A stretch of DNA of 64,000 bases, from the NCBI GenBank assembly GCA_963778565.1, contig CAVZUZ010000012.1:795764-859763 (forward strand), in the 5' to 3' direction. Made by a program: the position numbers and the translations under genes. Under the pieces are notes generated by a model. That model had not been told where the DNA came from, ran no database searches, and worked only from the letters and a program-made list of their open reading frames with translations. Positions 19,875-44,052 of the stretch are shown in pieces; the first letter of the stretch is position 1; the number at the start of each line of letters is the position of its first letter. This DNA comes from Thermoanaerobaculaceae bacterium (GTDB lineage: Bacteria > Acidobacteriota > Thermoanaerobaculia > Multivoradales > UBA5704).

Positions 19875-19927
19875 GCCCGGCGATAAATCGCCGGGCTACA
19901 AGGGCAGCGCCGGGTGAACCCGGCTTT
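19875..19927. repeat. REP element (two hairpins), left of RAYT
   Basis: GCCCGGCGATAAATCGCCGGGCTACAAGGGCAGCGCCGGGTGAACCCGGCTT. Confidence 0.85.
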
Positions 19928-19963: not shown

Positions 19964-20377
19964 TTGCCGTATTGGCAGCTCTTCTACCACGCGGTCTGGG
20001 CGACGCGATTTCGCGAGCCTCTGATATCCGCGGAAGTGGAGTCGGTCATTCATGGCCTGCTTCGCGGCAAGGCCGTTGGGTTGGGAGCCGAGGTGTTCGC
20101 ATTGAACGGCATGGAAGACCATGTCCATATGGTCATCTCCATTCCTCCCAAGCTGTCCGTGGCGGGATTCATCGGCAAGGTAAAGGGGGCCACCTCGACG
20201 AGGTTCAACAAGGCGGGCCTTCTGAACCGTCCGTTCTTCTGGCAGGAGGAATACGCGGTCCTTTCCTTCGATAAAAAGCGGCTGCCGCGCTACGTCGCCT
20301 ACGTACGAAACCAGAAGCTCCATCACGCGAACAGCTCGACGATCCCAATCCTGGAACGTACAGAAGAGACCGATTAG
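19964..20377 (+). CDS. IS200/IS605-like Y1 (HUH) transposase, REP-associated (RAYT-like)
   Basis: YHAVWATRFREPL, the HUH motif DHVHMVISIPP, and GKVKGATS...WQEEYAV. It is flanked by inverted REP copies. Confidence 0.85.
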   Translation: MPYWQLFYHAVWATRFREPLISAEVESVIHGLLRGKAVGLGAEVFALNGMEDHVHMVISIPPKLSVAGFIGKVKGATSTRFNKAGLLNRPFFWQEEYAVLSFDKKRLPRYVAYVRNQKLHHANSSTIPILERTEETD

Positions 20378-20382
20378 GTTTG

Positions 20383-20434
20383 AAGCCGGGTTCACCCGGC
20401 GCTGCCCTTGTAGCCCGGGCATTTATGCCCGGGC
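20383..20434. repeat. REP element, inverted copy right of RAYT
   Basis: AAGCCGGGTTCACCCGGCGCTGCCCTTGTAGCCCGGGCATTTATGCCCGGGC is the reverse complement of the left copy, apart from the loop. Confidence 0.85.
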
Positions 20435-20449: not shown

Positions 20450-20756
20450 ATGAACCTCCCCGTCGCCTGTACCCTCTCCACCCCCGAGCTGCACGAACGC
20501 GAGCAGACCGTCCTCGCCAAGGTCCGCGCCCGCGTTCAGGAGGTGCGGGACCTCGACTCCGGATACGCCCTCCGCTTCGATCCCGAGGGCGCGATGCTCG
20601 CCGACCTCGCGACGCTCATCGAGCTGGAGCGCCAGTGCTGTCCCTTCCTGCGATTCGAGCTTCGAGGTGCTCCCCGCGAGCGGCCCCATCTGGCTGGAGC
20701 TCACCGGTCCCGAAGGCACCCGAGATTTCCTCCGAACCATCCTGAATCTGCCGTAA
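20450..20756 (+). pseudogene. Small CCPF-motif protein (unknown function), frameshifted
   Basis: The frame changes at 20654-20667. Upstream reads ...IELERQCCPFLRFE and downstream (+1 frame) reads [29 protein letters not shown]. The junction contains CGAGCTT. Confidence 0.7.
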
Positions 20757-20778
20757 GATCACCCCGCAACCAGGCTTG

Positions 20779-20830
20779 AAGCCGGGTTCACCCGGCGCTG
20801 CCCTCGTAGCCCGGACATGGATGTCCGGGC
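20779..20830. repeat. REP element, second inverted copy
   Basis: AAGCCGGGTTCACCCGGCGCTGCCCTCGTAGCCCGGACATGGATGTCCGGGC. Confidence 0.85.
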
Positions 20831-20844
20831 GAAGGAGTGAACCT

Positions 20845-23052
20845 ATGCCTTCTGAAGTTTCTCGACTTCGCCGCGACATCTCCGTTCTGGTCGTCCTCGT
20901 CCTGCTCCTGGCGATCCCCGCCCTCTCCGCCGCCGCGAAACGGCCCATCACCGAGACCGACCTCTTCGAGTTCGTCTGGATCGCAGGCCCGCAGATCTCG
21001 CCGGACGGCAGGCAGGTGGCCTTCGTCCGGGTCACCGTCAACGAGAAAAAGGATGGCTACGATACCGCCATCTGGATCGTGCCGGCGGACGGCGGCGAGC
21101 CGCCGCGGCCGTTCACCAGCGGCCCGCGCGACGGCTCGCCCCGATGGTCTCCGGACGGCACGCGGATCGTCTTCACCCGCGCCGCCGAGAAAGAGGGCAA
21201 GCCCGAGCCGCCGCAGCTCTACCTCATCTCGACCCAAGGTGGCGAGGCCGTGAGCCTCACCGACCTGCCGCGCGGCGCGGGCTCGCCGGCGTGGTCTCCG
21301 GACGGCAAGACCATCGCCTTCGTCAGCTCGGCGAACGACGAGGATCTGAAGAAGTGGCAGGAGAAGAAGAGCAAGAAGGATGAAAAGGCCAAGGAGGAGA
21401 AGAAAGGCGAGGAAAAGAAGGAAGGAGAAGAGGAGCGGGAGAGCGATGTCCGCGTGATCACCCGGGCGATCTACCGCTTCAACGGCCCCGGTTATCTCGA
21501 TCCCAAGCGCCCCAGCCATCTCTGGACCATCGAGGTGCCGGCGGCAGGAGCCAAGGCCCCCGAGCCGAAACAGATCACCACCGGCGAGCTCGCCGAGGCC
21601 GAGCCCGCCTGGTCGCCGGACGGCTCGCTCCTCTACTTTCTCTCGAACCGCCTCGAGGAACCCTATTACGAGGCGCAGGACGCCGACCTCTACGCCGTGG
21701 CCGCCAAGGGCGGCGAGATCCGCCGCATCATCAGCATCGACGGCCCGATCGGCGACTTCACGCTGTCTCCCGACGGCAACCAGGTGGCCTTCGCGGGCTA
21801 CCGGAATTCCAAGCCGGACCGCTCGCACAATCAGACCGATCTGTTCGTTGCGGCCGCGGCGCCGGAAGCCGAGGCGCGGAACCTGACGACCACCTTGGAC
21901 GACGACGTCCTCGAGGGGCTCGCGGCCGACCAGCATCCGCCGCGCGGCGGCCGGTCGCAGCCGATCGTCTGGAGCCGGGACGGCCGCTCGATCTTCGTCG
22001 TCGCCGGCGATCGCGGCCGGGTGAACATGAAGCGATTCGACGCGGCGACCGGCGCCGCCGAGGCCCTCACCCGGGGCGACCAGGAGATCGTCTCCTACAC
22101 CGCGACGGCGGACGGCTCGCGCATGGCGGTCGTCGTTTCAACGCCGACGGCAATCAACGACCTTTTCGCGCTCGACACCGCTACCGGAAAGATGACGCCG
22201 CTGGCGCAGCCGAACCAGGAGCTCTTCTCGCAGCTCGAGCTGACCCCGCCCGAGGAGATCACCTACAGGAGCTTCGACGGCAAGGAGATCCACGCCTTCG
22301 TCCAGAAGCCCCCGGACTTCGACCCCAAGAAGAAATACCCGCTCATCCTCAACATCCACGGCGGGCCCCACGCGGCGTACGGCTTCGCCTTCTTCCACGA
22401 GATGCAGTGGATGGCCGCCAAGGGTTACGTGGTGATCTATCCGAACCCGCGAGGCAGCTCCACCTACGGCCAGGAGTTCGGCAACGTCATCCAGTACGAG
22501 TTTCCCGGCGACGACGCCAAGGACCTGCTGGCCGGCGTGGACGAGATGGTCAAGCAAGGCATCGCGGACCCCGCGCGCCTGGGCGTCACCGGCGGCAGCG
22601 GCGGCGGCATCCTCACCAACTGGATCATCACCCAGACGGACCGCTTCGCCGCCGCGGCTTCGCAGCGCTCGATCGCCGACTGGACGAGCTTCTGGTACAC
22701 GGCGGATTTCACGCTGTTCCGACCGACCTGGTTCCGCGGCGCGCCGTGGGAAGATCCTCAGGATTTCGCGCGCCGCTCGCCGATCACCCACGCCGCCAGG
22801 ATCACGACGCCGCTCATGCTCATCGAGGGCGACACGGATTGGCGCACGCCGCCCGCGGCCGGCGGCGAGATGATGTTCCGGGCCTTGAAATACATGAAGA
22901 AGCCGGTCGTCATGGTGCGCTTCCCGGGCGAGAGCCACGACCTTTCGCGCAGCGGCCAGCCCTGGCATCGCGTCGAGCGGCTGCAACACATCGTGGCCTG
23001 GTTCGACAAGTACCTGCAGGGGAAGAAGATCGACGACTACGACGTGCCTTGA
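20845..23052 (+). CDS. S9 family serine peptidase (acylaminoacyl/prolyl oligopeptidase type) with N-terminal beta-propeller
   Basis: GAAGGAG RBS 7 nt before ATG 20845, and a signal-like [22 protein letters not shown] propeller repeats, nucleophile elbow GVTGGSGGG, and C-terminal GESHDL. Confidence 0.9.
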
Positions 23053-23065
23053 GGCGGGCCAGATG

Positions 23066-23162
23066 GAAATCAAGGACAAGAAGGACAGCAAGGACGTCAA
23101 GGACGCGAGGTGAACGGGATGCTCCTCGTCCTAGAAGTCCTTGCCGTCCTTTTCGTCCTTGG
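23066..23162. repeat. AAGGAC-rich palindromic repeat, second copy
   Basis: GAAATCAAGGACAAGAAGGACAGCAAGGACGTCAAGGACG...CGTCCTAGAAGTCCTTGCCGTCCTTTTCGTCCTTGG. Confidence 0.75.
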
Positions 23163-24135
23163 TCTCCGCGGCAAAGTCAGCGGCTCTCGGGAGAGATTCC
23201 CCCTTCTTTGTCTCTGCCTGATCCTGGTGGGTTGCGCCGGCAGGCTGCCGCCTCAGGGCGCTCCTGTACCGTTCTCTGCCGAGGCTGTCTCGCTCTTCGG
23301 CGAGCCCCTCGTGGCGCCGGCGCTCCCAGCCGAAACGCGGGCTGACCGCGAGGCCAAGCTCGCCGAGGCCCGCGCCGCCGTGGAGCGCTCGCCGGACGAC
23401 GCCGGCGCCCTGATCTGGCTCGGCCGGCGCACGGCGTACCTGGGACGCTACCGGGAGGCGATCGAGATCTTCTTCCGCGGCATCGCAAAGCATCCGGACG
23501 ATGCCCGTTTCTATCGCCACCGCGGCCACCGCTACATCACCGTGCGTGAATTCGACCGGGCCGTCGCGGACCTGGAGCGCGCGGCGCAACTGATCGCCGG
23601 CAAGGCGGACGAGATCGAGCCGGACGGTCTGCCCAACGCGCGCAACGTCCACACCAGCACGCTGCAGTCGAACGTCTGGTATCACCTCGGACTGGCCCAT
23701 TACCTCAAGGGCGACTTCGAGGCCGCGCTCGCCGCCTACCAGGAGTGCCTGAAGGTGTCGGGCAATCCGGACATGCTGGCGGCCACCAGCCACTGGCTCT
23801 ACATGACCCTCCGGCGCCTGGGACGGGAGGAGGCCGCGCGCCAGGTCCTCGGGCCCATCCACGCCGGCATGGACATCATCGAGAACCAGGCCTACCACCG
23901 GCTCCTGCTGCTGTACAAGGGCGAGCTTTCGCCAGCGGCTCTCCGCGCCGGCGCCGCCGGCGACCTCGATCCGCCGACGATCGGCTATGGCTTGGGCAAC
24001 TGGCACCTCTACAACGGACGTAGGGAAGAGGCGTTACGGACCTTCCGTGAGGTCCTCGCCGGCGGCAATTGGCCCGCCTTCGGCTTCATCGCCGCCGAGG
24101 CGGATCTGCAGCGGCTGGGGGAAAGGCCGCGGTAA
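23110..24135 (+). CDS. TPR-like repeat (lipo)protein
   Basis: Lipobox-like LILVGCAG and TPR-like helices (YRHRGHRYITVREFDRAVADLERA, WYHLGLAHYLKGDFEAALAAYQE). The first ~17 codons are encoded by the palindromic repeat, so the start is uncertain. Confidence 0.65.
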   Translation: MNGMLLVLEVLAVLFVLGLRGKVSGSRERFPLLCLCLILVGCAGRLPPQGAPVPFSAEAVSLFGEPLVAPALPAETRADREAKLAEARAAVERSPDDAGALIWLGRRTAYLGRYREAIEIFFRGIAKHPDDARFYRHRGHRYITVREFDRAVADLERAAQLIAGKADEIEPDGLPNARNVHTSTLQSNVWYHLGLAHYLKGDFEAALAAYQECLKVSGNPDMLAATSHWLYMTLRRLGREEAARQVLGPIHAGMDIIENQAYHRLLLLYKGELSPAALRAGAAGDLDPPTIGYGLGNWHLYNGRREEALRTFREVLAGGNWPAFGFIAAEADLQRLGERPR

Positions 24136-24142
24136 GGGACCT

Positions 24143-24733
24143 TCACGCGGACTCGGCCAGGAGCCGCTCCAGGCCGGCGACCAGTCGGCGGAAAGAGAGG
24201 CAGCGCTGATGGGCGAGATCGAGATCCATCCTTGCTGCGAAGATGGGTTGATGCACCGTGACTACATAGTGCCGATTCTCTTCCATGTTGCGGCTCAACC
24301 TTTCTTTGGCGCCCCGGATCGTCTCAGGTTCCTCGGGCGCTTTCGCGTCGGCGCGGATCCCTTGGACGCCGCGTAGAGATTCCTTACTGCCGAGGAACCA
24401 GGACTCGAGCTCCCGAGTGGCCGCGACGACAACGGTGGGCAACGGCCTTGCCTCGCGGCACCGCTGCAGAAGAGAGCGCTCAAGGGGGAGAGGCTCATCG
24501 TCATCCGCATCCAGGATCACCAGCACGGAGTCGACACCCTCTCGATACCGAATGCCACGAGAGAGGGCGCGTTCGATCTCGCCCGGCTGGCTCATCTTGA
24601 GCCGCGGAATGCGGAATGGCCGCGCTACTCGGACCTCGGGATGCTCGAGCTTCACCAGCAGGCGGCGGCGGAGGATCGGCACGGCCTCCTCCTCGGAATG
24701 CCCCTCGACAATTGGAAGGAGGCAGCTAATCAC
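24143..24733 (-). CDS. DUF4276-like protein (putative Toprim-like partner of the ATPase)
   Basis: The N-terminal LLPIVEGHSEEEAVPILRRRLL and the acidic LVILDADDD resemble DUF4276. The start lies 3 nt after the ATPase stop. Confidence 0.65.
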   Translation of the reverse strand: MISCLLPIVEGHSEEEAVPILRRRLLVKLEHPEVRVARPFRIPRLKMSQPGEIERALSRGIRYREGVDSVLVILDADDDEPLPLERSLLQRCREARPLPTVVVAATRELESWFLGSKESLRGVQGIRADAKAPEEPETIRGAKERLSRNMEENRHYVVTVHQPIFAARMDLDLAHQRCLSFRRLVAGLERLLAESA

Positions 24734-24736
24734 AGA

Positions 24737-25921
24737 TCAGAGCGAGATTTCTTTGAACAGGTCCAGGCGCTTGGCGACGGTCTGAGCGGCTTCAACATCC
24801 TGGCTCAGCTCATTGATCCTCAAAAGATCGCCGGCCGTGTAGAGTCGCTCACGGATCGCTTGCCTGCTGGCTTGGGAAACCGGCGCAATGATCGTGCGCC
24901 CGTTCTCCTTGGTGACAACCCGAAGCTGATCGTCGGACACTTCCTTTTCGTCCAGGATGTCCGCGCTGTGGGTCGTAATCACAACTTGGCAGTCATATAC
25001 GGCATGCAACAGGACTTGCAGGATCAGCCCCGCGCTGGCTGGATAAACTGTCGTTTCAGGCTCCTCGATGACTAGAACGGAAGGCTGCTGGGCTTGGAGG
25101 ACGGCGAGGAGCAGACCGAGTATGCGGAGAGTCCCGTCCGACATCTCGGTCGCGGCCAGATGCCCCGGTTGCTCCGTTCCCACGTCCACTTCAAATTCCA
25201 GGATGGCTCTTCCCTCCACGCCAGTTACGCTGATTCCCTGGACTCCCGGCACAACCCTGGAGAGGAGAGCGCAAAGGAGCTTATAACGTTCCTTGTCCCC
25301 TGCCCCATTTCGCAGATGGGCCAAGACCGACGCCGCATTCCTCCCATCGGGCTCTAATAGAACACCCGCGTCGAGCTCCTGCCACTGGCGCAACCGGCGA
25401 GGATCGATCGAATAGGACCGCACCGAGGTGAGGAACTCGTAAAGCGGGCTGAACTCCTCTGTGGCCGACGCCGCGAAAAGGGCAAGCCGATTAGCGGAGA
25501 GTTTCGGCCGAATTCCCGGGATCTCCCTTATGAAGCGCCCATCCGTCAGCTCGAAATCTGCAGCACCTTGGGGACCCCAGACGGCGCCTTTCTCATGGAC
25601 GACCCGGTACTGGTCGTTCTCGCTGGCGATCTCGAAAGCGTATTCAGCGGACTGGTTTTCGGCGAGGTCGACAACCAGCTTGATGCCGAAGGAGACGGGC
25701 TCCTCCATCCAAATCGGCAGAAGACCAGATCTGTGTCGGCGGTTCCACGCCTGTTGGATCGATTCCGACAAACACTCCTGCACGAACGCCAGCGCATCCA
25801 CGAAGTTGCTCTTCCCGGCGCCGTTCGGACCCACGAAGACCGTGAACGGCTCGAGGTCGACCACCGCCCGCTCGATGCTCTTGTAGTTCTGGATCTGGAC
25901 TTGGCGGATTCTGGGTACCAT
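24737..25921 (-). CDS. ABC/SMC-like AAA ATPase (AAA_15/AAA_21 type)
   Basis: Walker A GPNGAGKSNF, signature-like MSDGTLR, Walker B VLVIEEPE, H-loop ITTHS. Confidence 0.85.
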   Translation of the reverse strand: MVPRIRQVQIQNYKSIERAVVDLEPFTVFVGPNGAGKSNFVDALAFVQECLSESIQQAWNRRHRSGLLPIWMEEPVSFGIKLVVDLAENQSAEYAFEIASENDQYRVVHEKGAVWGPQGAADFELTDGRFIREIPGIRPKLSANRLALFAASATEEFSPLYEFLTSVRSYSIDPRRLRQWQELDAGVLLEPDGRNAASVLAHLRNGAGDKERYKLLCALLSRVVPGVQGISVTGVEGRAILEFEVDVGTEQPGHLAATEMSDGTLRILGLLLAVLQAQQPSVLVIEEPETTVYPASAGLILQVLLHAVYDCQVVITTHSADILDEKEVSDDQLRVVTKENGRTIIAPVSQASRQAIRERLYTAGDLLRINELSQDVEAAQTVAKRLDLFKEISL

Positions 25922-26109
25922 GGAACGCTCGCCGTCGGGGGTTTGATCCTACCATGGTCTTGGCAGTGTCAGAGGGGGGCGAAACGTCCCGTGGCCTCTG
26001 GACATCTTCTTTAGAGCTTGCTGTGCCGTGGCGGGTCCGGCCCGTTCGGCCGTAAAATACCGGAAGGAAGGCCCCTTCTCTGGAAACTCAGCACTTTGTG
26101 GAGACGTCA

Positions 26110-28616
26110 ATGAGCAGCCAATTCCGATCCCCTGCCGCCCACGCTTGGACTGCTTTCGCGGTCGCCCTGGCCCTAATCCCGGCGGTCGCTCTCGCCGCGC
26201 CTTCGGCGGACCCCACCTACGCCGCCTTGCGCGCCGCCCGGCCGGACGGCCGCACGGTGCCGGTCAACGGGCTGGTGCTGGAGCGGGACGTCTTCCGCTT
26301 CCAGTTCGACTCCGGGGCGTTCCATTTTCTGGCGCCGGTCGCCGGCCGCACGGTGGGGGCGGTGTTCGTCGGCCGCGGCAGCTACCGGCTGAGCCCGGCC
26401 ACCGAGAACGAGCGGCGGCAACTCGCACTGTCCTCGGGCGCCGGCAGCGGCTTCGAGACCCTGACGGACGATTTCGACGATCTGGTCCTGCTGTTCGCGG
26501 ATGACACGGCCCAGGAAATCGAGCTCCACGCATCCGCTCGCGCGGGGACGCCCGACCCGCGCGCCGCCGAGGTCCAAGAGCGCTATCTCAAGCGGCAGCG
26601 GAAGGATTTCCGGACCAATTTCCAGGCGCGGCTGCTGCGCGACCTGCTGAACAGTCCCGGCCTCATGAGCGGCGTCTTCCTTTCGCTGATCGACGGCAAG
26701 CAATATCCCCCAGCTCTCGCGGCGGTGGACCCTGACGGCTCCGAAGCACTGGGAATCAGCATCCGTCTGGGCAGCGAGGATACGGTCTTCGTCGTGGCGG
26801 ATCCCAACCGCGGCGGCCTCTGGTATCACTGCGACCGCCAGGCGGAGGTGGAGCGCAAACGCAAGAGCCCGGAGAAACGCCTGACGGACGCGCTCGACTA
26901 CACCGTCGACACTCGCGTCGAGAAGAATGAGGATCTGGCCGGCACGACCACGATTCGATTCAAGACGCTGGTGCCCAATCTGCGGGTCCTGCCGCTGTTC
27001 CTGGAGCCCTCCCTCCGCATCAAGGAGGCTGCATTCGCTGTCGACGCCGGGGATGCGGAGGCGTCCTGGAAACCGGTCGCCTTCGTCCAGGAAGCTCGAG
27101 AAGGAGGACGCCGACGCCGCGGTCGTTTTCCCCGAGGCGCTGGCCAAAGGCGCGACGGCCCTGTTGCGGCTCGCCTACAAAGGCGAGAAGGTGCTCGTGG
27201 ATGGTGGCGACAAGAACTACTACGTTGGCGCCCGGGCAAGCTGGTACCCGAACGTGGGAGTCTTCTCCGATCCCGCCGTCTTCGACCTGACCTATCACGT
27301 TCCCGCCGGCAACGAAATCATTTCGGTGGGAAAGCTCGTGGAAGAGAAAACCGGGAACGAGCAGAGCGTTTCGCGATGGCGAACGGAGCATCCCGTTCAA
27401 GTCGCGGGCTTCAACTACGGCAAGTTCAAGAAGCTGGCCAAGCAGGACGAGTTCAGTAAGATCGACGTCGAGGTCTATACCAACCCAGGCACCCCCAACA
27501 TCATCAAAGAGATCAACGCGGCGATGAGCGGTGACTCGATGGATCAGATCGACCAAGGGTTCGAAACCGGCGCCCCGGGAGAAAGCCTGGGCAAGATCAA
27601 CACGGGCCGGTTGGCGGAGGCTTCCCTCGCAGACGGGCTCAACTCCGCACGCCTCTTCACCACCTATTTCGGGCCGCTGCCGCAGACCCACGTCGCCATC
27701 ACGCAGCAGTCCAACTTTACCTTTGGCCAGTCCTGGCCGTCGCTCATTTTCATGCCCTATCTTTCCTTCATGAACGGCACGCAGCGCCAGATTCTCGGCA
27801 TGGTGCAGGCCAAGGACTTCGTCGACCAGGTGGGATATCACGAGTTCGCGCACCAATGGTGGGGCCATCTGGTGGGAGCCGAAACCTACCGGGACCAATG
27901 GCTGGAGGAGGGATTCTCCGAGTTCTCGGCGGCTTTGGCCGTTCACCACACCAAGGGCTGGACCGATTATGACCGGTTCTGGAAAGAGCGGCGGAAGGAA
28001 ATCCTGGAGAAGACTCCCGGCAACGTCATGGCACCTTACGAGGCCGGCCCGATCAGCCAGGGTTGGCGCCTCTCCACGGCGCGGACGCCCTCCGCCGGCG
28101 GCATGATGTATCCCAAGGGCGGCTACGTGCTCCACATGCTGCGCATGTTGATGTACGACTGGAAGCTCGAAGGATCCGGACGCCCGGTTCATCGTCATGA
28201 TGAAGGACTACACCGCCGCCTACGGCGGCAAGTTCGCGTCTACGGCGGACTTTCAGAAGGTGGTGGAGCGCCACATGGTGCCCGCCATGAACGCCACCAA
28301 CGACGGCAAGATGGACTGGTTCTTCAACCAGTGGGTGTACGGCACCGAGATGCCGCGCTACGTGAGCGACCTCAAAGCGGAGCCGGCGGGGGAGGAGACC
28401 CGCATCCACGGCACCATCCGCCAGGAAGGGGTGTCGAAGGATTTCCGTGCCGTCGTGCCGATCTACGTCGAGCTCGGCAAGAACGAGACGGCGCGGGTGG
28501 GCATGCTGCCGCTGATCGGCGAGGCGAGCGTGCCGGTCGACGTCAAGCTGAAGCTGCCGAAAAAGGTCCGCAAGGTCTACCTCAACGCCCACGGCGAGGT
28601 GCTGGCGCGCGACTGA
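26110..28616 (+). pseudogene. M1-family zinc aminopeptidase, two frame breaks
   Basis: Signal peptide, then HEFAHQWWGHLVG...WLEEGFSEF (HExxH-18-E). The protein is spread over three frames, switching near 27092 and 28163. Confidence 0.85.
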
Positions 28617-28646
28617 TGGAAGAGCTTCCCAGGGGTAGGCCCACGC

Positions 28647-29219
28647 GTGGATTCCAGCTCGGTCGGAGATCCGGCGCGATATCCCGCGCTGGATCACCTG
28701 GAGACGAGCCTGGCGGCTCTGCCGGACGCGCCCCGGGATCTGGGCCGGATAGCCCTGCTCGTGAGACGCGGTGAGGGCGGTCTGCGGGAGCAGCCGGATC
28801 GGGTACGCCTGGCGCCGGATACCGGCCTTCCAGGAGACGCATGGGGACGCCGCAGCGAGCCCAACCCCGAGGCGCAGCTCACGGTCATGCAGATCGCCGT
28901 GGCGGAGCTGATCGCGCATGGTCAGCCGTTGTCGCTGTTCGGGGACAACCTGTTGCTGGATCTCGATCTCTCAGCCGCGAACCTGCCCATCGGCAGCCGC
29001 GTGCGCGTGGGCGAGGCCATTTTGGAGGTGACTCCGAAGCCCCATAACGGCTGCCAGAAGTTCCGAGCGCGATTCGGCCCTGACGCGCTGCGTTTCGTAT
29101 CGAAGCCCGATCTGCGGCACCGCAACCTCCGCGGCATCTACATGCGAGTGGTGCAGCCGGGCGAAACGGCGCCGGGCGATCCGGCGGAGGTCATTTCGCG
29201 AGGACCCAGCCATGGATGA
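28647..29219 (+). CDS. MOSC domain-containing protein
   Basis: GDNLLLDLDLSAANLPIGSRVRVGEAILEVTPKPHNGCQKF is the MOSC beta-barrel region with the conserved Cys. GTG start. Confidence 0.8.
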   Translation: MDSSSVGDPARYPALDHLETSLAALPDAPRDLGRIALLVRRGEGGLREQPDRVRLAPDTGLPGDAWGRRSEPNPEAQLTVMQIAVAELIAHGQPLSLFGDNLLLDLDLSAANLPIGSRVRVGEAILEVTPKPHNGCQKFRARFGPDALRFVSKPDLRHRNLRGIYMRVVQPGETAPGDPAEVISRGPSHG

Positions 29220-29460
29220 CAAGCAGTCCAACAGCGAGCAGTTCGTCGCCGATGGTTACCAACGGCTGGTATCCAGCGACGAATACCAGGCGGCCGCCGC
29301 GGCGGCGAAAAAGCGGGTTCATGCGCAGTTCGACCCGCAGATTGCCGCCGCCGGGCCGCTGCGCCGCCTGCGGTTGTACTACCTTCGCCATCGCGAGCTG
29401 TCGCGAGAGCTCGAACGTCTCGCGCCTCCCGGGGCGTTCTATGTCAGGTCCAACGGTTGA
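29212..29460 (+). CDS. Small hypothetical protein
   Basis: 82-aa ORF overlapping the MOSC stop by 8 nt. No family was recognised. Confidence 0.35.
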   Translation: MDDKQSNSEQFVADGYQRLVSSDEYQAAAAAAKKRVHAQFDPQIAAAGPLRRLRLYYLRHRELSRELERLAPPGAFYVRSNG

Positions 29461-29985
29461 TCATGCGAGCGTAGCGTCGAGATACCGCTCGTGCAGGATC
29501 GCCGTGTGGTGAGCGAGGTGACCGGCCACGATGTAGGCGATGGCGCGCACGGTAAAGGGGTTGCCGCTGGCGATGCCGCTGCGCTCCCAGGCCTCGGCCG
29601 GCAGGTTGCGGAAGAAGGACAGGGTCGCGAGGCGTACGCTGCGAAATTCTTCGACGTGGCGGGCCCAGGACACCTCGTCGGCCTTCGCTCCGGCGGCGCT
29701 GATGCCTTCGTCGAAGCTCGGTAAGGGAGTGTCGAAGCCGCGGGCGAACCAGAGAGCACGGCACACGAAGACCCGCTCGGTGTCACTGACGTGGTTGAGG
29801 ACCTGGCGGATGCTCCACTTCTCCGGCGCATAGCGGTGGAGGGATCCCTCCTCCGAGAGGCCGGACAGGAAATCCGTCGCCTCGTCGAGCTGCGTCGCGA
29901 GGAAGCCGACGATGTCGTCGCTCGTCACCCGGTCGATGTAGCGGTGGTAGTAGGCAGCGGCCTCGTCGGTTCCTGGACGTCCCAT
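29461..29985 (-). CDS. DinB-family protein
   Basis: From MGRPGTDEAAAYYHRYIDRV the sequence is DinB-like: WSIRQVLNHVSDTERVF...AYIVAGHLAHHTAIL, a His-triad four-helix bundle pattern. Confidence 0.8.
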   Translation of the reverse strand: MGRPGTDEAAAYYHRYIDRVTSDDIVGFLATQLDEATDFLSGLSEEGSLHRYAPEKWSIRQVLNHVSDTERVFVCRALWFARGFDTPLPSFDEGISAAGAKADEVSWARHVEEFRSVRLATLSFFRNLPAEAWERSGIASGNPFTVRAIAYIVAGHLAHHTAILHERYLDATLA

Positions 29986-30346
29986 CCCTGAATCCCCTTT
30001 CGTTCTGTAGACGCGCGTGCGGGTCTGTTCCGAAGCCGCACCCGCGGCGGAGAGGAGTTTGCAGTACGGGGGTGGTCGCAGGCAAGATCCACTTCCGGCC
30101 CGCCGGATGGGGCCACTCCCTGGGAGCGCCGGCGTCGCTCCGATATACAAGTGAAGAGTCACGGAGAGACCGAAGGTGTGCGGAGACTTCGTGGCGCCTT
30201 TCGATCGCGATCCCGTAGAGGTTTTCGCCGTCGAAACGGCTCGGCCGGTCCCGGATGCCGGGCACGTTTTCGCCGCCTGCCGTGTCTAAGGAGGAGAGCG
30301 GCCCCAAAACCGGGACCGCCCAGACCGATGCAAGAGGACGAAATCC

Positions 30347-33300
30347 ATGTCCCGATCCCTCATGATGCTTGGTTCGACCGTTCTCGCCGCCCTCGGGCTC
30401 GCCGGCGGTCTCTCGGTTGATGCTTCGAAACCCGGCGAGTCTCGGCCCGCCGCCGGCTTCGCTTCCGCCTCGTTCAGGTTCCCGAAGGTATCCGTCGACG
30501 AGCCGGCGGCTGAATCGGCCGCGCCGATCAGCCTCACCGCGTCCGACGGTACGGGTCTCACCCTGGTGGGCCTGGAGGCGAACGGGGTTCTCGAGCCGCC
30601 TCTGGCCTTCACCGAGCTGCATCTGACGTTCGAAAACCCCCGCAACGAGATCATCGAGGGCCGTTTTCGCATCGGCCTGCCGCCGGGCGCGGCGCTCTCC
30701 CGCTTCGCCATGAAGATCGGCGACGCCTGGCAGGAGGGCGAGGTGGTGGAGCGCCAGCGCGCCCGACGGGTTTACGAGGACTTCCTCCATCGCCGGCAGG
30801 ACCCGGCGCTGCTCGAGCAGGAAGCGGGCAACGAGTTCTCGGCCCGCGTCTTCCCCATCCCGGCGCGCGGCCGCAAGGAGCTGATCGTCTCCTACTCGCA
30901 CGCCATGGCGCGCTCGGACGAGGCGTACGTCCTTCCTCTCCAGGGTCTCTCGGAGATCGGCCGGCTCGACATCCGCGTGCTTCTCGGCGAGCGCCCCGTC
31001 GCGCCCGCCGAGGAGGCCGGGGCGAGCAATCTCGGCGGCGAGGTGAGCGACCGCCGCCTCGTCGAGCTGCACAAGCGGGACTGGACCCCGGACCGCGACT
31101 TCGAGATCGCTCAGAGCCGCGTCGCCGGACGCGCGGGGCTGCGTCACGCCAATCTCGCGGTAGTGCGCGTCTCGCCGCCCGTCGAGGCCGCGCCGCAGGA
31201 GATCTCCGGCCTCTACGTGCTGGTCGATTCGAGCGCCTCGCGCGCCCTCGGCTACGCCACCCAGGTGCGCCGGCTCGGCGAGCTGATCACCGGCTTGCGC
31301 GACGGCGCGGGAGGCGCGACGCCGGTGGGCGTCGCCGCCTTCGATCAGGAGGTGATATCGATCTTCGAAGGTACGGCGAGCGGCTTCGGCCAGGCGGAGC
31401 TGGAGCGTCTCGGCGCGCGCCGGCCGCTCGGCGCTTCCGATCTCCACCGCGCGCTCGGCTGGCTCGGCAACCGGTTGGCCAACAATATGGCCAACAATAT
31501 GGCCAACAATACTGGCAAGCATCCGCGCGTGCTGCTGATCACCGACGGCGTCGCCACGGCCGGCGACACCGAGACCCGCGCCCTCAAGGCGGCGGTGCGG
31601 GCGCTCGGCGCCAAGGGCGTCGACCGTCTCGACGTTCTGGCCGTGGGCGGCCTGCGCGACGAGGCCGTGCTGCGCGAGCTGACGACCGGCAACCTGGCGC
31701 ACGACGGCCAGCGCATCGACGGTGGCGCTCCCCTCGCCGACATCGCCCGCCGGCTCACGCTCGCCTGCCGCTCCGGAATCAAAGTCGAAGTCGAAGGAGC
31801 CGGCTGGGTGTGGCCCGAGACGCTCGACGGCGTGCAGCCCGGCGACGAGACGCTGGTCTACGCCGATCTGCCGGCGGGCCGGCCGTTCCGCCTCACGCTC
31901 GGCGGCAAGACCGTGGCGCTCGCGGACAAGCTGGCGACCGCCGAGCGGCCGCTGCTCGAGCGGGCCTGGGTGCAGGCGCGCATCGAGCGGATGCTGCATC
32001 TGCGCGAGGCCGCGCTCGGCGCCGACGACGACCTGCGCCGCGCCCTGGGGCTGCAGATCACCGAGCTGAGCGTGAAGCACCGCGTGCTGAGCCCGTTCAC
32101 CGCCATGCTGGTGCTGGAGACCGAGTGGGATTACGCGCGCTTCGGCCTCGAGCGGCGCGCCCTCGCCAACATCCTCACCGTGGGACCCGGCGGGCTGGAC
32201 GTGCTCGCTCGCTCGCGCGCCGCGGTGTCCCAAGACACCCGGGTCGCGGCGAAGCTCGGGGAAGCTCGACCGACGTCGGATCCGAGTCGCTGGAAGGCGA
32301 GCCGGGCTCCGAAGGTCCCGGGGCTCAGGACTTCGAGGGTGTCCCGGGTGGTATCGAAGGCGGGGTCGCAGGCGGGATAGTCGGCGGCGTCCCCGGTGGC
32401 GTGCCGAGCGCTGCGTTGGCGGCGCCGCCGCCCGAGCCGTCGCAGGTCATCCCACGGGTCGAAACCGAGGAAGCCCTTCGCGTCGGGCAGCCTGTCGAAG
32501 CACCTAATGAGCTGCCTGCCGTGGCACCCGAGGCGCGGCCCGACAGCGACCGGATTCAGCTCGACGAGCAACGGAAGGAGAAGCGCATCGAGCCCTACAG
32601 CGGCCGTTTCGCCGAGGTGATGGCTCACCTCGCCGCTCGCCGCATCGCGCAGGCGCGCACCGTCGCCGAGGCCTGGATCAAGGAGTCGCCGGGTGACGTG
32701 CTGGCCCTGCTGGCGCTCGGCGAGGTGTGGGAAGCCGCGGGTGAGACGACCGCGGCGGCGCGGGCTTACGGCTCGCTGATCGATCTCTTCCCGAGCCGCG
32801 CCGACCTGCGGCGGTTGGCGGGCGAGCGCCTCGAGCGGCTCGGCAAGGCGGGGCTCGAGCTGGCGATCGATACCTATCAGAAGGCCGTCCTCGACCGGCC
32901 GGACCACGCCACCGGCCATCGGCTCCTCGCCTGGGCGCTGCTGCGCGCCGGCCGCTCTGCCGAGGCCTTCGAAGCGCTCGAAAAGGGCATCGAGCAGGAA
33001 TATCCGCAAGGCCGCTTCGCCGGCCTCGACCAGGTCATGAAGGAGGACCTGGGCCTCCTCGCGTCTGCCTGGCTGTTCGCCGAGCCGGCCAGGCGCCAGG
33101 AGGTGCTCGACCGCCTTCAGGCGCAAGGCGCGCAGCTCGCCGGCGAGCCCTCCCTGCGTTTCGTCCTCTCCTGGGAGACGGACGCCAACGACGTCGACCT
33201 CCACGTCTACGACCGTCGCGGCAATCATGCCTATTACGGAGCCAAGGCGCTGTCCTCCGGCGGCGAGCTGTACGCCGACGTCACCACGGGCTACGGTCCC

Positions 33301-33537
33301 GAGTGCTTCGCGGTGAAAGAGCCGCCGGACCGCGGCGCCGCGCCGTACAAGCTGGCGGTCCACTACTACCGGCGCGGACCGATGGGCTACGGCATGGGGA
33401 TCATCCACGTCGTCGGCCACGACGGCAAAGGCGGCCTCTCCGTGGAGCCGCGGCCGTTCGTGGTCATGGCCGACAACGCCATGGTGGACGTGGGCTCGGT
33501 GGCGACGGGCGAGGCGGTTCGGGGCGGCGGGAAGTAG
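30347..33537 (+). pseudogene. VIT + von Willebrand A + TPR + DUF2135(YfaP-like) multidomain protein, one frame break
   Basis: VIT (LHLTFENPRNEIIEGRFRIGLPPGAALSRFAM), vWA (LYVLVDSSASR...VLLITDGVATAG), and in the other frame TPR helices plus SWETDANDVDLHVYD...DVTTGYGPECF. The frame switches at about 32250-32270. Confidence 0.8.
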
Positions 33538-40851: not shown

Positions 40852-41226
40852 TCATGAATTTCCCTCGAAGGGGTTCAAGATTCTCAGGCCATCGATGCCA
40901 GTGAAGTCGTCAACATTCCGAGTGACCAAGGTCAGGTTGTACAGAAGGGCTGTACCCGCTACCAGAGAATCACCGAGCTTGATCTTCCTCGCCTGACGGA
41001 GCCGAACCGCCGCGTCGAGGACAGGCCGAGAGAGAGGCAGGATGCGGGTCTCCGCGAAGAACGCCTCGAAATGCTCACGCTCCGTCTCACTCAGCCGGTG
41101 ATATCCGAGAACCTCGACATAGCTGGCGGCGGACACCGCCGGCACCCTCTCGACGATGAGCTGCCGAAGGAACTCATTTTCGGGCTGAGCGGAGTAGATG
41201 ATGATATTGCTGTCGAGGAGCATCAA
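40852..41226 (-). CDS. vapC: Type II toxin VapC (PIN domain)
   Basis: MLLDSNIIIY...LGDSLVAGTALLYNLTLVTRNVDDF. Confidence 0.9.
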   Translation of the reverse strand: MMLLDSNIIIYSAQPENEFLRQLIVERVPAVSAASYVEVLGYHRLSETEREHFEAFFAETRILPLSRPVLDAAVRLRQARKIKLGDSLVAGTALLYNLTLVTRNVDDFTGIDGLRILNPFEGNS

Positions 41227-41495
41227 GGATCACGATACGGAAGGGCTCTCTCCTGCCGCGTATCCCGCTCCCACTCGGCAGCGTCCCCGAAGCTCTTGGG
41301 GCCCCCGGCCGCAGCAAGCTGCTCCAAGGGAGCGGCCATGGCAATCCCCCGTGCTCTGGAGGTTGCGAGGGAATCCGGATGGTCCAGAATCGTCACGACA
41401 ACCTCGACTTCGCGGTCGGATGGGAGCGCTGCCGGCTCTTCATCGCGCCATTCCAGGCGATTCCCGTGCAGGACGGCTCTATAGGTGTCGCGCAT
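41223..41495 (-). CDS. Putative VapB-type antitoxin
   Basis: 4-nt overlap with vapC. AAGGGAG lies before ATG 41495. Small and acidic, with an N-terminal AVLHGNRLEW beta-strand motif. Confidence 0.55.
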   Translation of the reverse strand: MRDTYRAVLHGNRLEWRDEEPAALPSDREVEVVVTILDHPDSLATSRARGIAMAAPLEQLAAAGGPKSFGDAAEWERDTRQERALPYRDP

Positions 41496-41569
41496 CGCTG
41501 CTCCCTTCGGCCTCATAGTACTCCCGATAGCGCCACAGGTCGAGCGCGCACCCTTGATGAAGCTGGGCT

Positions 41570-41959
41570 TTAAGGCACACGCACCATCTGCTCGAACAGC
41601 TCGTCCAGCGCGCGCTCCGGCGAATCGCAGAGCCCCGTATGGACGGGCGAGACCTGGATGATCGTGCTGCGCGGGGCGACGAGCCAGTGGAAGCGCTCGC
41701 GGAGGGAGAGCCGCGCGATGGGTCCGCCTTCCGGGCTGCCGGCGCAGATTTTGGGAATCGCCTCCAGGTGCTGGCGGACCAGCTCGACATCGGTCTCGGG
41801 CCAGAGCGCGCGAAGCCGTGGCTCGTCGACCTCGACGCGGGCCTGCAGGAAGTCCCGCTCGAGACAGAAGAGGATCACGCCGGCGTTGACGAGCTCCTCG
41901 CGCTCCACGCGCGGGACCACCCGGATGACGGCGTAGTCAAACGAGCTGAGCGCGGGCAC
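41570..41959 (-). CDS. DUF3037 domain protein
   Basis: FDYAVIRVVPRVEREELVNAGVILFC...RFHWLVAPRSTIIQ resembles DUF3037. It overlaps the upstream kinase-like gene by 23 nt. Confidence 0.65.
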   Translation of the reverse strand: MPALSSFDYAVIRVVPRVEREELVNAGVILFCLERDFLQARVEVDEPRLRALWPETDVELVRQHLEAIPKICAGSPEGGPIARLSLRERFHWLVAPRSTIIQVSPVHTGLCDSPERALDELFEQMVRVP

Positions 41960-42716
41960 GCACCGCCTCCTCGACGAATCCCGAAGTCGCTTCGAGCCTC
42001 CGGGTCAGGAACGTCAGATACCCGGCGCGCCGGTCGGCGGGAGAGATCTCGGCATCGGCCGGCAGCCAGGAATCCGGGATCTGCTCGATCACCCGCGCAA
42101 ACAGCGTCTCATCGAGCCGCGGGCGCAACCGCTGATCGGCCTCCTCGATACGGCTCGCCCAGGGCAGTAGGATGTGATCGCGAACGGGGGAGAACCGGCT
42201 GCGGGCCATTTCCTCCACATTCTGCCAGTTGTGGTGGAAGTAGAACCCGGCACCATGGTCGATCAGGTAGAGCACCTTGTGCCACCACAACAGATTGGAG
42301 TTCCGCGGCGTCCGGTCGACGTTGGTGATGAAGGCGTCGAACCACACGATGGCCGAGGCGAGATCCGCCTCGACAGCATCGCCGGCGGCAGGATCGAAGG
42401 CCACGGAACCCGGCAGGTAGTCGACGCCCAGGTTCAGCCCCACGCTCGCCTTCAGCAGATCACGGATCTCCGGGTCCGGCTCGTTGCGTCCGAGCGCGGC
42501 GTCCACCTCCATCAGCACCAGGTCCGGCACCTTGAGACCGAGGGCGCGGCCGATCTCGCCGGCGATCAGCTCGGCCACCAGCGCCAGCGGACCCTGTCCG
42601 GCGCCCCGGAACTTGAGCACGTAGAACCCCAGATCGCTGGCCTCCACGATGGCCGGAAGCGAGCCGCCTTCGCGCAGGGGGGTTACATAGCGGGTGGCGT
42701 AGACCGTTGGGGGCAT
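41937..42716 (-). CDS. HipA-like (PI3/4-kinase fold) family kinase
   Basis: GGSLPAIVEASD..YVLKFRGAGQG...FDAFITNVDRTPRNSNLLWW...LIDHGAGF has catalytic-loop and DxG-like motifs of HipA-family kinases. Confidence 0.65.
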   Translation of the reverse strand: MPPTVYATRYVTPLREGGSLPAIVEASDLGFYVLKFRGAGQGPLALVAELIAGEIGRALGLKVPDLVLMEVDAALGRNEPDPEIRDLLKASVGLNLGVDYLPGSVAFDPAAGDAVEADLASAIVWFDAFITNVDRTPRNSNLLWWHKVLYLIDHGAGFYFHHNWQNVEEMARSRFSPVRDHILLPWASRIEEADQRLRPRLDETLFARVIEQIPDSWLPADAEISPADRRAGYLTFLTRRLEATSGFVEEAVRARAQLV

Positions 42717-42726
42717 GGACTCGTGC

Positions 42727-43020
42727 TCAACTACGGCCAGTCCAATAGGCTGGCCTGCGCCGATGGTGAGCGAGGGCGATCACCCGAAGCTCGTCACCTT
42801 TGACGTAGTAGATGATGCTGTAAGGGAACCGGCGTAGCGGAAAGCGCCGTCTGCCTCTCTTCCAAGAGGGACCGAGCTGGGGATGGGCGCAAAGAACGTT
42901 GAGAGTACGCTCGAACTCGTCAACGAAAGCCCGGCCGAGCTCGGCATTCCCTTCCCGGGCGTAGCGCAGAGCTCCCTCGCGGAGCTCCTCATCGGCCTCG
43001 GGACTGATCGAAGGAATCAC
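42727..43020 (-). CDS. RelE/ParE-family toxin
   Basis: GTG 43020 overlaps the antitoxin stop (GTGA). RRFPLRRFPYSIIYYVKGDELRVIALAHHRRRPAYW is ParE/RelE-like. Confidence 0.8.
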   Translation of the reverse strand: MIPSISPEADEELREGALRYAREGNAELGRAFVDEFERTLNVLCAHPQLGPSWKRGRRRFPLRRFPYSIIYYVKGDELRVIALAHHRRRPAYWTGRS

Positions 43021-43241
43021 CCGATGCCGGCGCGAGCGCGCGCTATCGCCTCGGCCGCGGGAATGAGCTTGGCGCGACCGCTCTCGATCTCCTCGACACG
43101 CCGCTCGACCTCGACTGCCCAAGCCTCCTCGACTTCACTATCCTCAGAGAGGCTGGCGATCAGGCGATCTGCAAGCCGCGCCCGCTCCTCCACGGTGAGC
43201 TTGAGCGCCTGCGCTTCCACGATTTCGAGTTGGTCCGGCAT
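43017..43241 (-). CDS. Addiction-module antitoxin component
   Basis: LTVEERARLADRLIASL...EVEEAWAVEVERRVEEIESG matches the 'putative addiction module component' family. Confidence 0.75.
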   Translation of the reverse strand: MPDQLEIVEAQALKLTVEERARLADRLIASLSEDSEVEEAWAVEVERRVEEIESGRAKLIPAAEAIARARAGIG

Positions 43242-43290
43242 ACGTTCCTCATTCTGCAGATTGATGGCGAGCCACTAGTCGCTACGCCGA

Positions 43291-43452
43291 TCAAGGCTGA
43301 TGTTTATCGTGCGTGGCCGCTACGTCCACTTCGCCGGACTCAAACCTAGCTTCAAGGATGGCATAGAGAGCGTCCAAGCGCTGTTCATCAGTCCCAGGCG
43401 ACACGCTGCGCAGCTCGACTCCGTTCTCATAGACAGCACGGATCAGGGCCAT
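43291..43452 (-). CDS. Small antitoxin-like protein
   Basis: MALIRAVYENGV (DUF104-like N-terminus) and a C-terminal ...SGEVDVAATHDKHQP. Start chosen at the second ATG. Confidence 0.4.
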   Translation of the reverse strand: MALIRAVYENGVELRSVSPGTDEQRLDALYAILEARFESGEVDVAATHDKHQP

Positions 43453-44022: not shown

Positions 44023-44052
44023 TTCGGGCTAAGCCTTCACGCGCGTAAGGTC

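What the first reader, a model, noticed from the sequence alone, without database searches (positions are those of the whole stretch)
20650..32270. The same heptamer AAGCTCG sits at every frame break of four disrupted genes, and deleting it restores all ORFs
There are five copies. They are at 20656-20662 (as the reverse complement CGAGCTT, in the small CCPF gene), 27092-27098 and 28163-28169 (M1 peptidase), and 32252-32258 plus 32262-32268, separated only by GGG (VIT-vWA protein). All share the octamer GAAGCTCG. Removing exactly these 7 nt gives continuous ORFs with sensible junctions: CCPFLRFE|VLPASGPIWLELTGPEG, AFVQ|EKEDADAAVVFPEA, MLMYDW|KDPDARFIVMMKDY and DTRVAA|G|TDVGSESLEGEPG. The required frame corrections (+1, +1, +1, +2) equal the copy numbers (1, 1, 1, 2). 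By my manual scan the heptamer occurs about 16 more times on either strand, always in-frame inside intact ORFs, or about 1 per 3 kb. Five copies falling within four ~20-nt junction windows is therefore far from the chance expectation. The codon phase differs between sites and one copy is inverted. This argues against a ribosomal frameshift or RNA-level signal and for a DNA-level insertion of a fixed 7-mer. Candidates include a transposon or nuclease repair footprint, an unknown micro-insertion mechanism, or an engineered or assembly artefact. I know of no described system that does this.
Basis: seen in the sequence. Interest (0 to 1): 0.85.

Follow-up and report, generated by a model that had tools for sequence, protein, structure and literature searches.

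The report
Single-base assembly errors, not heptamer insertions
The "inserted heptamer" is mostly native coding sequence with one surplus base in a recurring context (GAAGCTCGA), and the evidence points to a context-specific consensus error in a long-read-only metagenome assembly rather than a new insertion mechanism.

Summary
In about 90 M1-peptidase orthologs and 54 CCPF homologs, the two codons removed by a 7-nt deletion are present. Deleting a single base gives gap-free alignments (MYDW-SS-KDPD, FE-LE-VLP). All four certain breaks share the 9-mer GAAGCTCGA, most simply GAGCTCGA with A read as AA. The first VIT copy (AAG CTC = Lys-Leu) is probably native, because the closest homolog reads VAAKL there. 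A sixth hidden 1-nt surplus sits at the 5' end of the adjacent MOSC gene.

The same extra A occurs at the orthologous M1 site in an unrelated Nanopore-only MAG (MFD09730, about 80% nt identity), which also carries dozens of other 1-nt insertions. Short-read contigs with the same local sequence lack the extra A. A separate assembly of a near-identical strain (run ERR12036784) has uninterrupted M1 and MOSC ORFs at two of the sites. In the other long-read loci I fetched, GAAGCTC lies at 4 of 63 frame breaks (background 0.5%), against 0 of 42 in short-read loci. The window's source is a 1.5-Mb contig.

Verdict: context-specific consensus error. Low interest. Read mapping is still needed to confirm it.

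The parts
20655..20663 (-). GAAGCTCGA at the frame break of the small CCPF-motif gene (corrected gene 20450-20756, + strand). One surplus base. The native sequence is most simply TTC GAG CTC GAG GTG.
   Evidence: Viterbi switch at 20659/60. The L002 ortholog reads TTT GAG CTC CAG GTG CTC and L082 reads TTC GAC CTC AGG. All 54 homologs have two residues where the 7-nt deletion leaves a gap, and the 1-nt deletion gives FELEVLPASGPIW with no gap.
27091..27099 (+). GAAGCTCGA at the first frame break of the M1 aminopeptidase (corrected gene 26110-28616). One surplus base. Which base is ambiguous: deleting A gives QELEKED, deleting T or C gives QEAEKED.
   Evidence: GC3 and Viterbi switch. All orthologs have FxQE-xx-KED. 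A Logan contig of a near-identical strain has one uninterrupted 574-aa ORF from the ATG at 26110 through this site.
28162..28170 (+). GAAGCTCGA at the second frame break of the M1 aminopeptidase. One surplus base, best read as the A: the native sequence is TGG AGC TCG AAG GAT.
   Evidence: Orthologs read MYDW-SS-KDPD. L003 has AGC TCG AAG GAT CCG GAC GCC CGG TTC. L087, a short-read contig, has TAC GAC TGG AGC TCG AAG GAC CCG. L017, a Nanopore-only MAG, has the same extra A at the orthologous site.
32261..32269 (+). GAAGCTCGA at the frame break of the VIT/vWA/TPR protein (corrected gene 30347-33537). The net frame change is +2, meaning two surplus bases or one missing base within about 32259-32275 (GGGGAAGCTCGACC).
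   Evidence: Frames 30347..32380 and 31810..33537. Viterbi switch at 32271. Alignment with 40 homologs and with L161 DNA.
32251..32258 (+). First VIT copy of GAAGCTCG. It is probably native, in-frame AAG CTC = Lys-Leu, and not a break.
   Evidence: The closest homolog, P0126/L161 (84% identity), reads GTG GCG GCG AAG CTG = VAAKL at this position. The motif AK-LxxLGYVG is conserved in the family.
28619..28645 (+). Hidden sixth 1-nt surplus at the 5' end of the MOSC-domain gene (corrected 28616-29219, 200 aa). The stretch contains GAGCTTC (28622-28628), but also CCC and GGGG runs, so the surplus base cannot be assigned.
   Evidence: The Logan contig calls a 200-aa MOSC gene that overlaps the M1 stop codon by 1 nt. 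The window as it stands gives only 190 aa from GTG 28647. Cluster member P0123 starts MEDLRETGPRVDSSS.
26110..28616 (+). M1-family aminopeptidase gene, broken into three frames by the two surplus bases.
   Evidence: Homologs carry PF01433. Corrected length is 834 aa, 60-83% identical to more than 100 intact orthologs.
30347..33537 (+). VIT domain / TPR protein gene, broken once.
   Evidence: Homologs carry PF08487, PF13768 and TPR families and are 1040-1090 aa long and intact.

Best explanation
The frame breaks are consensus errors in a long-read-only (most likely Nanopore, Flye plus Medaka type) metagenome assembly. They are not insertions in the organism's DNA.

At each break the genome most likely reads ...GAGCTCGA..., and the assembly reports one surplus base (A read as AA, giving GAAGCTCGA). 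In the VIT gene two adjacent bases are surplus, and another single surplus base lies at the start of the MOSC gene. The 'heptamer' is simply six native bases (two real codons) plus that surplus base.

Shown:
- The surplus is 1 nt, not 7.
- The breaks share a context.
- The same error occurs at the orthologous site in an independent Nanopore-only MAG.
- It is absent from short-read contigs and from another assembly of a near-identical strain.

Inferred:
- The window's own contig is Nanopore-only.
- The cause is a k-mer-specific, possibly methylation-linked (GAGCTC, TCGA or AGCT), basecalling or polishing error, with partial penetrance in a locally weak stretch of consensus.
For: 1. Every ortholog keeps the two codons that a 7-nt deletion removes.
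   - About 30 genome loci and about 35 JGI loci for both M1 sites.
   - 54 of 54 CCPF homologs.
   - One-base deletions give MYDWSSKDPD and FELEVLP, matching ortholog DNA (AGC TCG AAG GAT CCG in L003, GAG CTC in L002).
2. L017 (MFD09730.bin.2.32) is about 80% nt identical to the window and is not its closest relative. It has tgg-A-agc tcg aag at the orthologous M1 site.
   - L087, a short-read contig, is identical to L017 over that 30-mer except for the A.
   - L017 also carries about 25 other 1-nt insertions relative to the window.
3. MFD MAGs are Nanopore-only, assembled with Flye and polished with one round of Medaka, without short-read polishing (PMC12313526).
4. My crude frame-break rate is 16.6 per 100 kb in the 16 MFD loci and 2.6 per 100 kb in the 102 short-read loci.
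5. In long-read loci other than the window, GAAGCTC/GAGCTTC lies within about 12 nt of 4 of 63 breaks. Background is 0.5% (p = 3e-4). The count is 0 of 42 in short-read loci.
6. Logan contigs from run ERR12036784 carry neighbouring proteins 100% identical to the window's. They show an uninterrupted 574-aa M1 ORF across site 2 and a 200-aa MOSC gene.
7. The source contig is 1,511,397 bp and is held in NCBI/ENA, which is typical of a long-read metagenome assembly.
8. Downstream of each break the codon bias stays fully coding (GC3 0.8-0.98) and there are no other lesions.
Against: - No reads were available, so the error is inferred and not observed.
- The sequencing platform of the window's source and of run ERR12036784 is not known.
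- Sixteen GAGCTCGA sites in the window are intact. The affected sites cluster in 12 kb: 4 of 9 inside the region against 0 of 11 outside, Fisher p about 0.03 by my arithmetic. Context alone therefore does not determine the error.
- At site 2, orthologs favour a surplus T or C (QEAEKED) over a surplus A (QELEKED). At the VIT site a single A cannot account for the +2 shift. 'A read as AA in GAGCTCGA' may therefore not be the exact event at every site.
- Published methylation-linked R10.4.1 errors found in my searches are mainly substitutions (abstracts listed), and I found no report of this particular motif.
Confidence: 0.85

Rival explanations
1. The surplus bases are real. GAGCTCGA would be a mutational hot spot for +1 insertions, for example linked to a site-specific modification, nicking or restriction activity. 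The four or five genes would then be very young pseudogenes, and the event would have arisen independently in two species.
For: - The context is strictly shared.
- The event recurs at the orthologous site in L017.
- The breaks cluster regionally within 12 kb.
- Nothing in the sequence alone can separate a very recent mutation from a consensus error.
Against: - Both carriers are Mb-scale contigs of the long-read type, and L017 is demonstrably full of indel errors.
- Closer relatives of each carrier that were assembled from short reads lack the extra base at an identical local sequence.
- A near-identical strain has intact ORFs.
- Two independent hits in one conserved peptidase, plus hits in three neighbouring genes, show no other decay.
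- No known mechanism adds a single A inside GAGCTC. SacI-type cleavage followed by repair would give 4-nt changes; this last point rests on my own knowledge.
Confidence: 0.07
2. The consensus is a chimera of co-assembled strains. Two alleles that differ at these codons (for example AGC TCG against AAG TCG at M1 site 3) are merged column by column into a 7-nt hybrid, AAGCTCG. This is a sub-type of the artefact explanation.
For: - Both AGC TCG and AAG TCG occur among orthologs at site 3. GAA GCC GAG and GAG GAG GAG both occur at site 2.
- The Logan contigs from ERR12036784 belong to a close but not identical strain: the 82-aa and MOSC products differ.
Against: - It does not explain why four sites converge on the same 9-mer.
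- It does not explain why L017 shows the same result.
- No allele data are available.
Confidence: 0.05
3. A fixed heptamer AAGCTCG was inserted at each site, as a transposon or nuclease footprint, an unknown micro-insertion mechanism, or an engineered change.
For: Deleting the 7-mers restores open reading frames with plausible junctions.
Against: - Every ortholog has two residues exactly where the deletion leaves a gap.
- Six of the seven bases match ortholog DNA.
- The first VIT copy is native.
- 17 other copies are ordinary in-frame sequence.
Confidence: 0.01
4. The breaks are programmed recoding: +1 ribosomal frameshifting or transcriptional slippage at GAAGCUCGA.
For: - Frames downstream of the breaks stay fully coding.
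- The same break is present in L017.
Against: - The motif sits in different codon phases. It is on the non-coding strand in the CCPF gene, so that mRNA carries UCGAGCUUC.
- More than 100 orthologs are unshifted, including the closest relatives of both carriers.
- One in-frame GAAGCTCGA, at 24645, is read straight through.
Confidence: 0.01

Closest known systems
Systematic, context-specific consensus errors in Nanopore-only bacterial and metagenome assemblies (homopolymer-length and methylation-motif-associated errors that survive Medaka polishing)
   Same: - Single-base surplus of the one-to-two homopolymer type.
- The same k-mer is affected in independent assemblies made with the same technology.
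- Genes are split into adjacent frames with intact codon bias.
- The error is absent from short-read assemblies.
- Errors cluster regionally, as in L017:2900-5720 (PMC12313526; PMC9262707 and PMC8011154, listed).
   Different: - I found no published description of this particular context (GAGCTCGA read as GAAGCTCGA).
- The papers found describe methylation-linked R10.4.1 errors mostly as substitutions.
- Penetrance here is partial: 4 of 20 GAGCTCGA-type sites.
- The platform of the window's source is inferred, not documented.
Transposon excision footprints and linker-type short insertions
   Same: A short identical string appears at several gene disruptions.
   Different: Only 1 of the 7 bases is extra. 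The rest is orthologous coding sequence. There are no target-site duplications and no element ends.
Programmed +1 ribosomal frameshifting (prfB type)
   Same: A +1 frame change with coding sequence on both sides.
   Different: There is no fixed codon phase. One site is on the opposite strand. The frameshift is not conserved among orthologs, and there is no slippery or stop-codon context.

Membership tests
Long-read (Nanopore-only) assembly consensus error | The lesion is a single-base (or very short) indel relative to the true sequence | tested here: met
   A 1-nt deletion gives gap-free alignments to all orthologs at the CCPF site and both M1 sites. The VIT site has a net +2 surplus. The MOSC site has +1.
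Long-read (Nanopore-only) assembly consensus error | The same sequence context is hit in independent assemblies made with the same technology, and not in short-read assemblies | tested here: met
   L017 has the identical error at the orthologous site. GAAGCTC lies at 4 of 63 breaks in long-read loci against a 0.5% background, and at 0 of 42 in short-read loci. L087, L082 and L002 are intact.
Long-read (Nanopore-only) assembly consensus error | Another read set or assembly of the same strain lacks the lesion | tested here: met
   This was tested at two sites only. Logan contigs of ERR12036784 have 100% identical AAA-ATPase and DinB proteins. They show an uninterrupted 574-aa M1 ORF across site 2 and a 200-aa MOSC gene. 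No DNA was available, and sites 1, 3 and 4 are not covered.
Long-read (Nanopore-only) assembly consensus error | The source assembly is long-read only and was not polished with short reads | tested here: inconclusive
   The source is a 1,511,397-bp contig held in NCBI/ENA. Its name and platform are hidden. The closest comparable records (MFD MAGs) are Nanopore-only.
Long-read (Nanopore-only) assembly consensus error | Raw reads or signal disagree with the consensus at the sites; a modification motif overlaps the sites | not testable with these tools
   No reads and no methylation calls were available. No methyltransferase was seen among the window ORFs scanned.
Fixed-oligomer insertion / excision footprint | Exactly the oligomer is extra relative to orthologs | tested here: not met
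   All orthologs carry two residues at the supposed insertion point, and six of the seven bases match ortholog DNA.
Programmed ribosomal frameshift | The signal is on the mRNA in a fixed codon phase, and the frameshift is conserved among orthologs | tested here: not met
   Codon phases differ, the CCPF site is on the opposite strand, and orthologs are unshifted.
Genuine pseudogenes | Further lesions and relaxed codon bias downstream of the break | tested here: not met
   GC3 is 0.8-0.98 and there are no stop codons in the corrected frames. Very young pseudogenes cannot be excluded.

The most novel reading that the evidence does not exclude
GAGCTCGA is a genuine DNA-level hot spot for single-A insertion in Thermoanaerobaculia, for example a by-product of a site-specific modification or nicking system acting on GAGCTC or TCGA. 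It would have struck independently in two species and several neighbouring genes, creating a cluster of very recent frameshifts.
Probability: 0.05. Interest if true: 0.6.

Novelty: not a real feature. Interest (0 to 1): 0.1.

Why it matters
As biology it matters little. The four genes (M1 aminopeptidase, VIT/TPR protein, CCPF-motif protein, MOSC protein) are almost certainly intact in the organism.

As quality control it is useful. The case shows a reproducible, context-specific single-base error (GAGCTCGA reported as GAAGCTCGA) that splits conserved genes in long-read-only soil MAGs and recurs at orthologous sites in different assemblies. Errors of this kind inflate pseudogene and hypothetical-protein counts, and they can look like exotic insertion or recoding mechanisms. 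A motif-aware frameshift check against orthologs would catch them. If the context coincides with a methylation motif, it also hints at that organism's methylome.

Tried and rejected
1. An ORF-extension test after deleting the A at every GAAGCTC in all loci was too noisy in high-GC DNA: 59 of 462 sites were flagged, mostly spuriously. I replaced it with a codon-usage Viterbi.
2. I checked other same-strand frame switches in the window (34518, 41960, 42771, 43049, 48582, 50186, 53438). All are gene junctions or toxin-antitoxin gene overlaps.
3. I checked other GAAGCTC copies near gene ends (11543, 13592, 16577, 20314, 41289, 42786, 51205). The sequence as it stands gives family-typical protein at these sites (IS200-like NQxxHH, DUF559-like, ParE, antitoxin) or is intergenic. 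Site 51205, the N-terminus of a NadA-like gene, is undecided.
4. Exact look-ups of my corrected proteins (CCPF, M1 at 574 and 834 aa, VIT, MOSC) all failed. The near-identical strain differs by a few residues, and truncated products seem not to be stored.
5. I tried to identify the source record or platform with five further exact look-ups and through the supplements of PMC12313526. None succeeded.
6. I looked for a methyltransferase in the low-GC islands of the window and found none among the 20 ORFs scanned.
7. I looked for orthologs of the other motif-linked breaks (L017:515, L072:1755, L058:22160). None was among the fetched loci.
8. The L031:13948 break turned out to lie at GGCAAGCTGG, not in the nearby AAGCTCGA.
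9. A literature search for this motif as a known Nanopore error context found nothing specific.
Full report
**Observation**

The heptamer AAGCTCG occurs 22 times in the window, against 15.0 +/- 3.8 expected, so it is not enriched overall. Five copies lie at the stated coordinates, each inside GAAGCTCG.

The frame changes are real. The GC3 frame plot across the M1 peptidase switches phase at about 27090 and about 28165, with GC3 of 0.8-0.98 on both sides. A codon-usage Viterbi over the whole 64 kb places same-strand switches at 20659/60, 27091/92, 28168/69 and 32271. The remaining switches are ordinary gene junctions or overlapping toxin-antitoxin genes.

**What is actually extra**

The organism is a member of the Thermoanaerobaculia (Acidobacteriota). 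A scan of one genome per species returned 80 loci with M1 orthologs, about 30 of them 60-80% identical. A scan of JGI metagenomes returned 80 more.

The 7-nt-deleted M1 protein has a two-residue gap exactly at both junctions when aligned to every one of these orthologs: FVQE--KED against FIQEAEKED/FIQEEEKED, and MYDW--KDPD against MYDWSSKDPD.

- **M1 site 3.** At the codon level, L003 reads AGC TCG AAG GAT CCG GAC GCC CGG TTC, and L087 reads TAC GAC TGG AGC TCG AAG GAC CCG. The window reads TGG A AGC TCG AAG GAT CCG. One A is surplus.
- **CCPF gene.** L002 reads TTT GAG CTC CAG GTG CTC. The window reads TTC GAG CTT C GAG GTG CTC. All 54 homologs retrieved have two residues (LQ, LK, LE and others) where the 7-nt deletion leaves a gap. 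The 1-nt deletion gives FELEVLPASGPIW without a gap.
- **M1 site 2.** One base is surplus, but which one is ambiguous. Deleting A gives QELEKED. Deleting T or C gives QEAEKED, which equals L002, L004 and L118.

**The VIT gene**

No ortholog lay in the syntenic loci, so I searched the protein database. In the 40 best homologs the junction falls in a conserved AK-LxxLGYVG motif. The closest homolog, P0126 (84% identity, locus L161), reads GTG GCG GCG AAG CTG CGG AAC CTG AGC TAT GTC GGC TCC = VAAKLRNLSYVGS. The window reads GTC GCG GCG AAG CTC GGG GAA GCT CGA CCG ACG TCG GAT CC.

The first copy therefore encodes the conserved Lys-Leu in frame and is most likely native. The net +2 shift (two surplus bases, or one missing base) lies in GGGGAAGCTCGACC, around the second copy. 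The exact native sequence cannot be fixed without reads. Candidates are KLGELTDVGS and KLGSSTDVGS.

**A sixth lesion**

A look-up of the DinB-like protein (29461-29985) found a 2,329-nt contig in the Logan assembly of run ERR12036784. There the MOSC gene is 200 aa long and overlaps the M1 stop codon by one base. In the window the ATG at 28616 (cTGATGg) is out of frame with the MOSC body, which is only callable as 190 aa from GTG 28647.

Removing one base in 28619-28645 gives MEELPGVGPRVDSSS.... A 93%-identical Logan protein, P0123, starts MEDLRETGPRVDSSS. The stretch contains GAGCTTC (28622-28628) but also CCC and GGGG runs, so the surplus base is not assignable.

**Shared context**

All four certain breaks carry the 9-mer GAAGCTCGA. 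There are five copies in the window against 1.4 expected. The fifth, at 24645, is in frame, and its gene length agrees with the Logan contig. The simplest common event is GAGCTCGA becoming GAAGCTCGA (A read as AA).

Sixteen GAGCTCGA sites are intact. Affected sites number 4 of 9 inside 20.6-32.3 kb and 0 of 11 outside (Fisher p about 0.03, my arithmetic). Context is therefore necessary but not sufficient.

**Why I think it is technical**

1. L017 (CAWAUI010000004.1, MAG MFD09730.bin.2.32, a 5.9-Mb contig) is only about 80% nt identical to the window. Yet it reads tac gac tgg A agc tcg aag gac ccg at the orthologous site.
   - It is not the window's closest relative. L082 and L002 are closer and unshifted. 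L017's own closer relative, L087, has the identical 30-mer without the A.
   - The event therefore arose twice.
2. L017 has about 25 other single-base insertions relative to the window, about 22 of them packed into 2.9 kb. This shows that consensus errors in such assemblies cluster regionally.
3. MFD MAGs are Nanopore-only, assembled with Flye (--meta, --nano-hq) and polished with one round of Medaka, without short-read polishing (PMC12313526).
4. With a crude detector, frame breaks occur at 16.6 per 100 kb in the 16 MFD loci and at 2.6 per 100 kb in the 102 short-read loci.
5. In long-read loci other than the window, GAAGCTC/GAGCTTC lies at 4 of 63 breaks (L017 twice, L072, L058) against a background of 0.5% (p = 3e-4). 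The count is 0 of 42 in short-read loci.
6. A 4,920-nt Logan contig from ERR12036784 carries a 394-aa neighbour 100% identical to the window's. It calls the M1 gene as one uninterrupted 574-aa ORF from the ATG at 26110 to the contig end, straight through site 2. That is impossible with the window's sequence.
7. The window's source is a 1,511,397-bp contig in NCBI/ENA, which is typical of a long-read metagenome assembly.

**What remains inferred**

I could not see reads, the name or platform of the source record, or the DNA of the Logan contigs. I found no paper describing this motif as an error context. A link to methylation of GAGCTC, TCGA or AGCT is a hypothesis. No methyltransferase was among the ORFs I scanned. 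A chimeric consensus of co-assembled strains is a possible sub-mechanism.

**Rivals**

- **Fixed heptamer insertion.** Excluded by the ortholog alignments.
- **Programmed frameshifting.** Excluded by variable codon phase, the opposite-strand copy, unshifted orthologs, and an in-frame copy of the same 9-mer.
- **Real recurrent +1 insertions at a hot spot.** Cannot be excluded from sequence alone. This would need independent hits in two species that both happen to be long-read assemblies, with short-read relatives and a near-identical strain unaffected. I give it about 5-7%.

**Verdict**

The coordinates and frame breaks are confirmed. The heptamer as a unit is not. The best explanation is a context-specific single-base consensus error in a long-read-only assembly (confidence 0.85). 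Biological interest is low. The practical value is as a recognisable error signature.

Noticed in passing
window 19891-19908 (-), 20401-20418 (+), 20797-20814 (+); gene 19964-20377 (+): Three copies of a REP-like hairpin element (GCTGCCCT[T/C]GTAGCCCGG followed by a CCCGG...CCGGG palindrome) flank an IS200-like Y1 transposase gene (PF01797) and the CCPF gene. This looks like a RAYT-plus-REP arrangement.
   Followed up: partly
The corrected gene is 28616-29219 and 200 aa long.
   Followed up: yes
window 24143-25921 (-): An AAA_21/AAA_15 ATPase (394 aa) is followed by a DUF4276 protein (179 aa). This is a two-gene pair of the kind often found in defence islands.
   Followed up: no
window 40852-46656: A cluster of toxin-antitoxin and defence-type genes: PIN toxin with an upstream antitoxin-like ORF, DUF3037 with a HipA_2 kinase, ParE with an antitoxin, and a STAND NTPase of 867 aa.
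   Followed up: no
window 2128-4188: A phage-integrase-family recombinase sits directly upstream of an IS91-type Y2 transposase, inside a lower-GC stretch that my codon model scored as non-coding.
   Followed up: no
window, 16 sites: Intact GAGCTCGA is itself over-represented: 16 copies against 7.3 expected, and 0 of 100 shuffles reach 16. This is probably a codon-usage effect (GAG CTC GAx).
   Followed up: no
L017:2900-5720: About 22 single-base insertions (mostly C or G, of the one-to-two type) relative to the window fall within 2.9 kb of a public Nanopore-only MAG (MFD09730.bin.2.32), breaking two conserved genes many times.
   Followed up: partly
L031:13930-13960: Another MFD MAG (MFD03066) has a frame break at GGCAAGCTGG, where a 94%-identical short-read MAG (L009) reads GGCAA-CTGG. 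This could be a related surplus-base error next to AGCT.
   Followed up: partly
window 51205-51266: GAGCTTC lies 15 nt inside the start of a NadA-like gene (50183-51220). Removing one T would extend the N-terminus to the ATG at 51266. The form as it stands is the one on record, and the question is undecided.
   Followed up: partly
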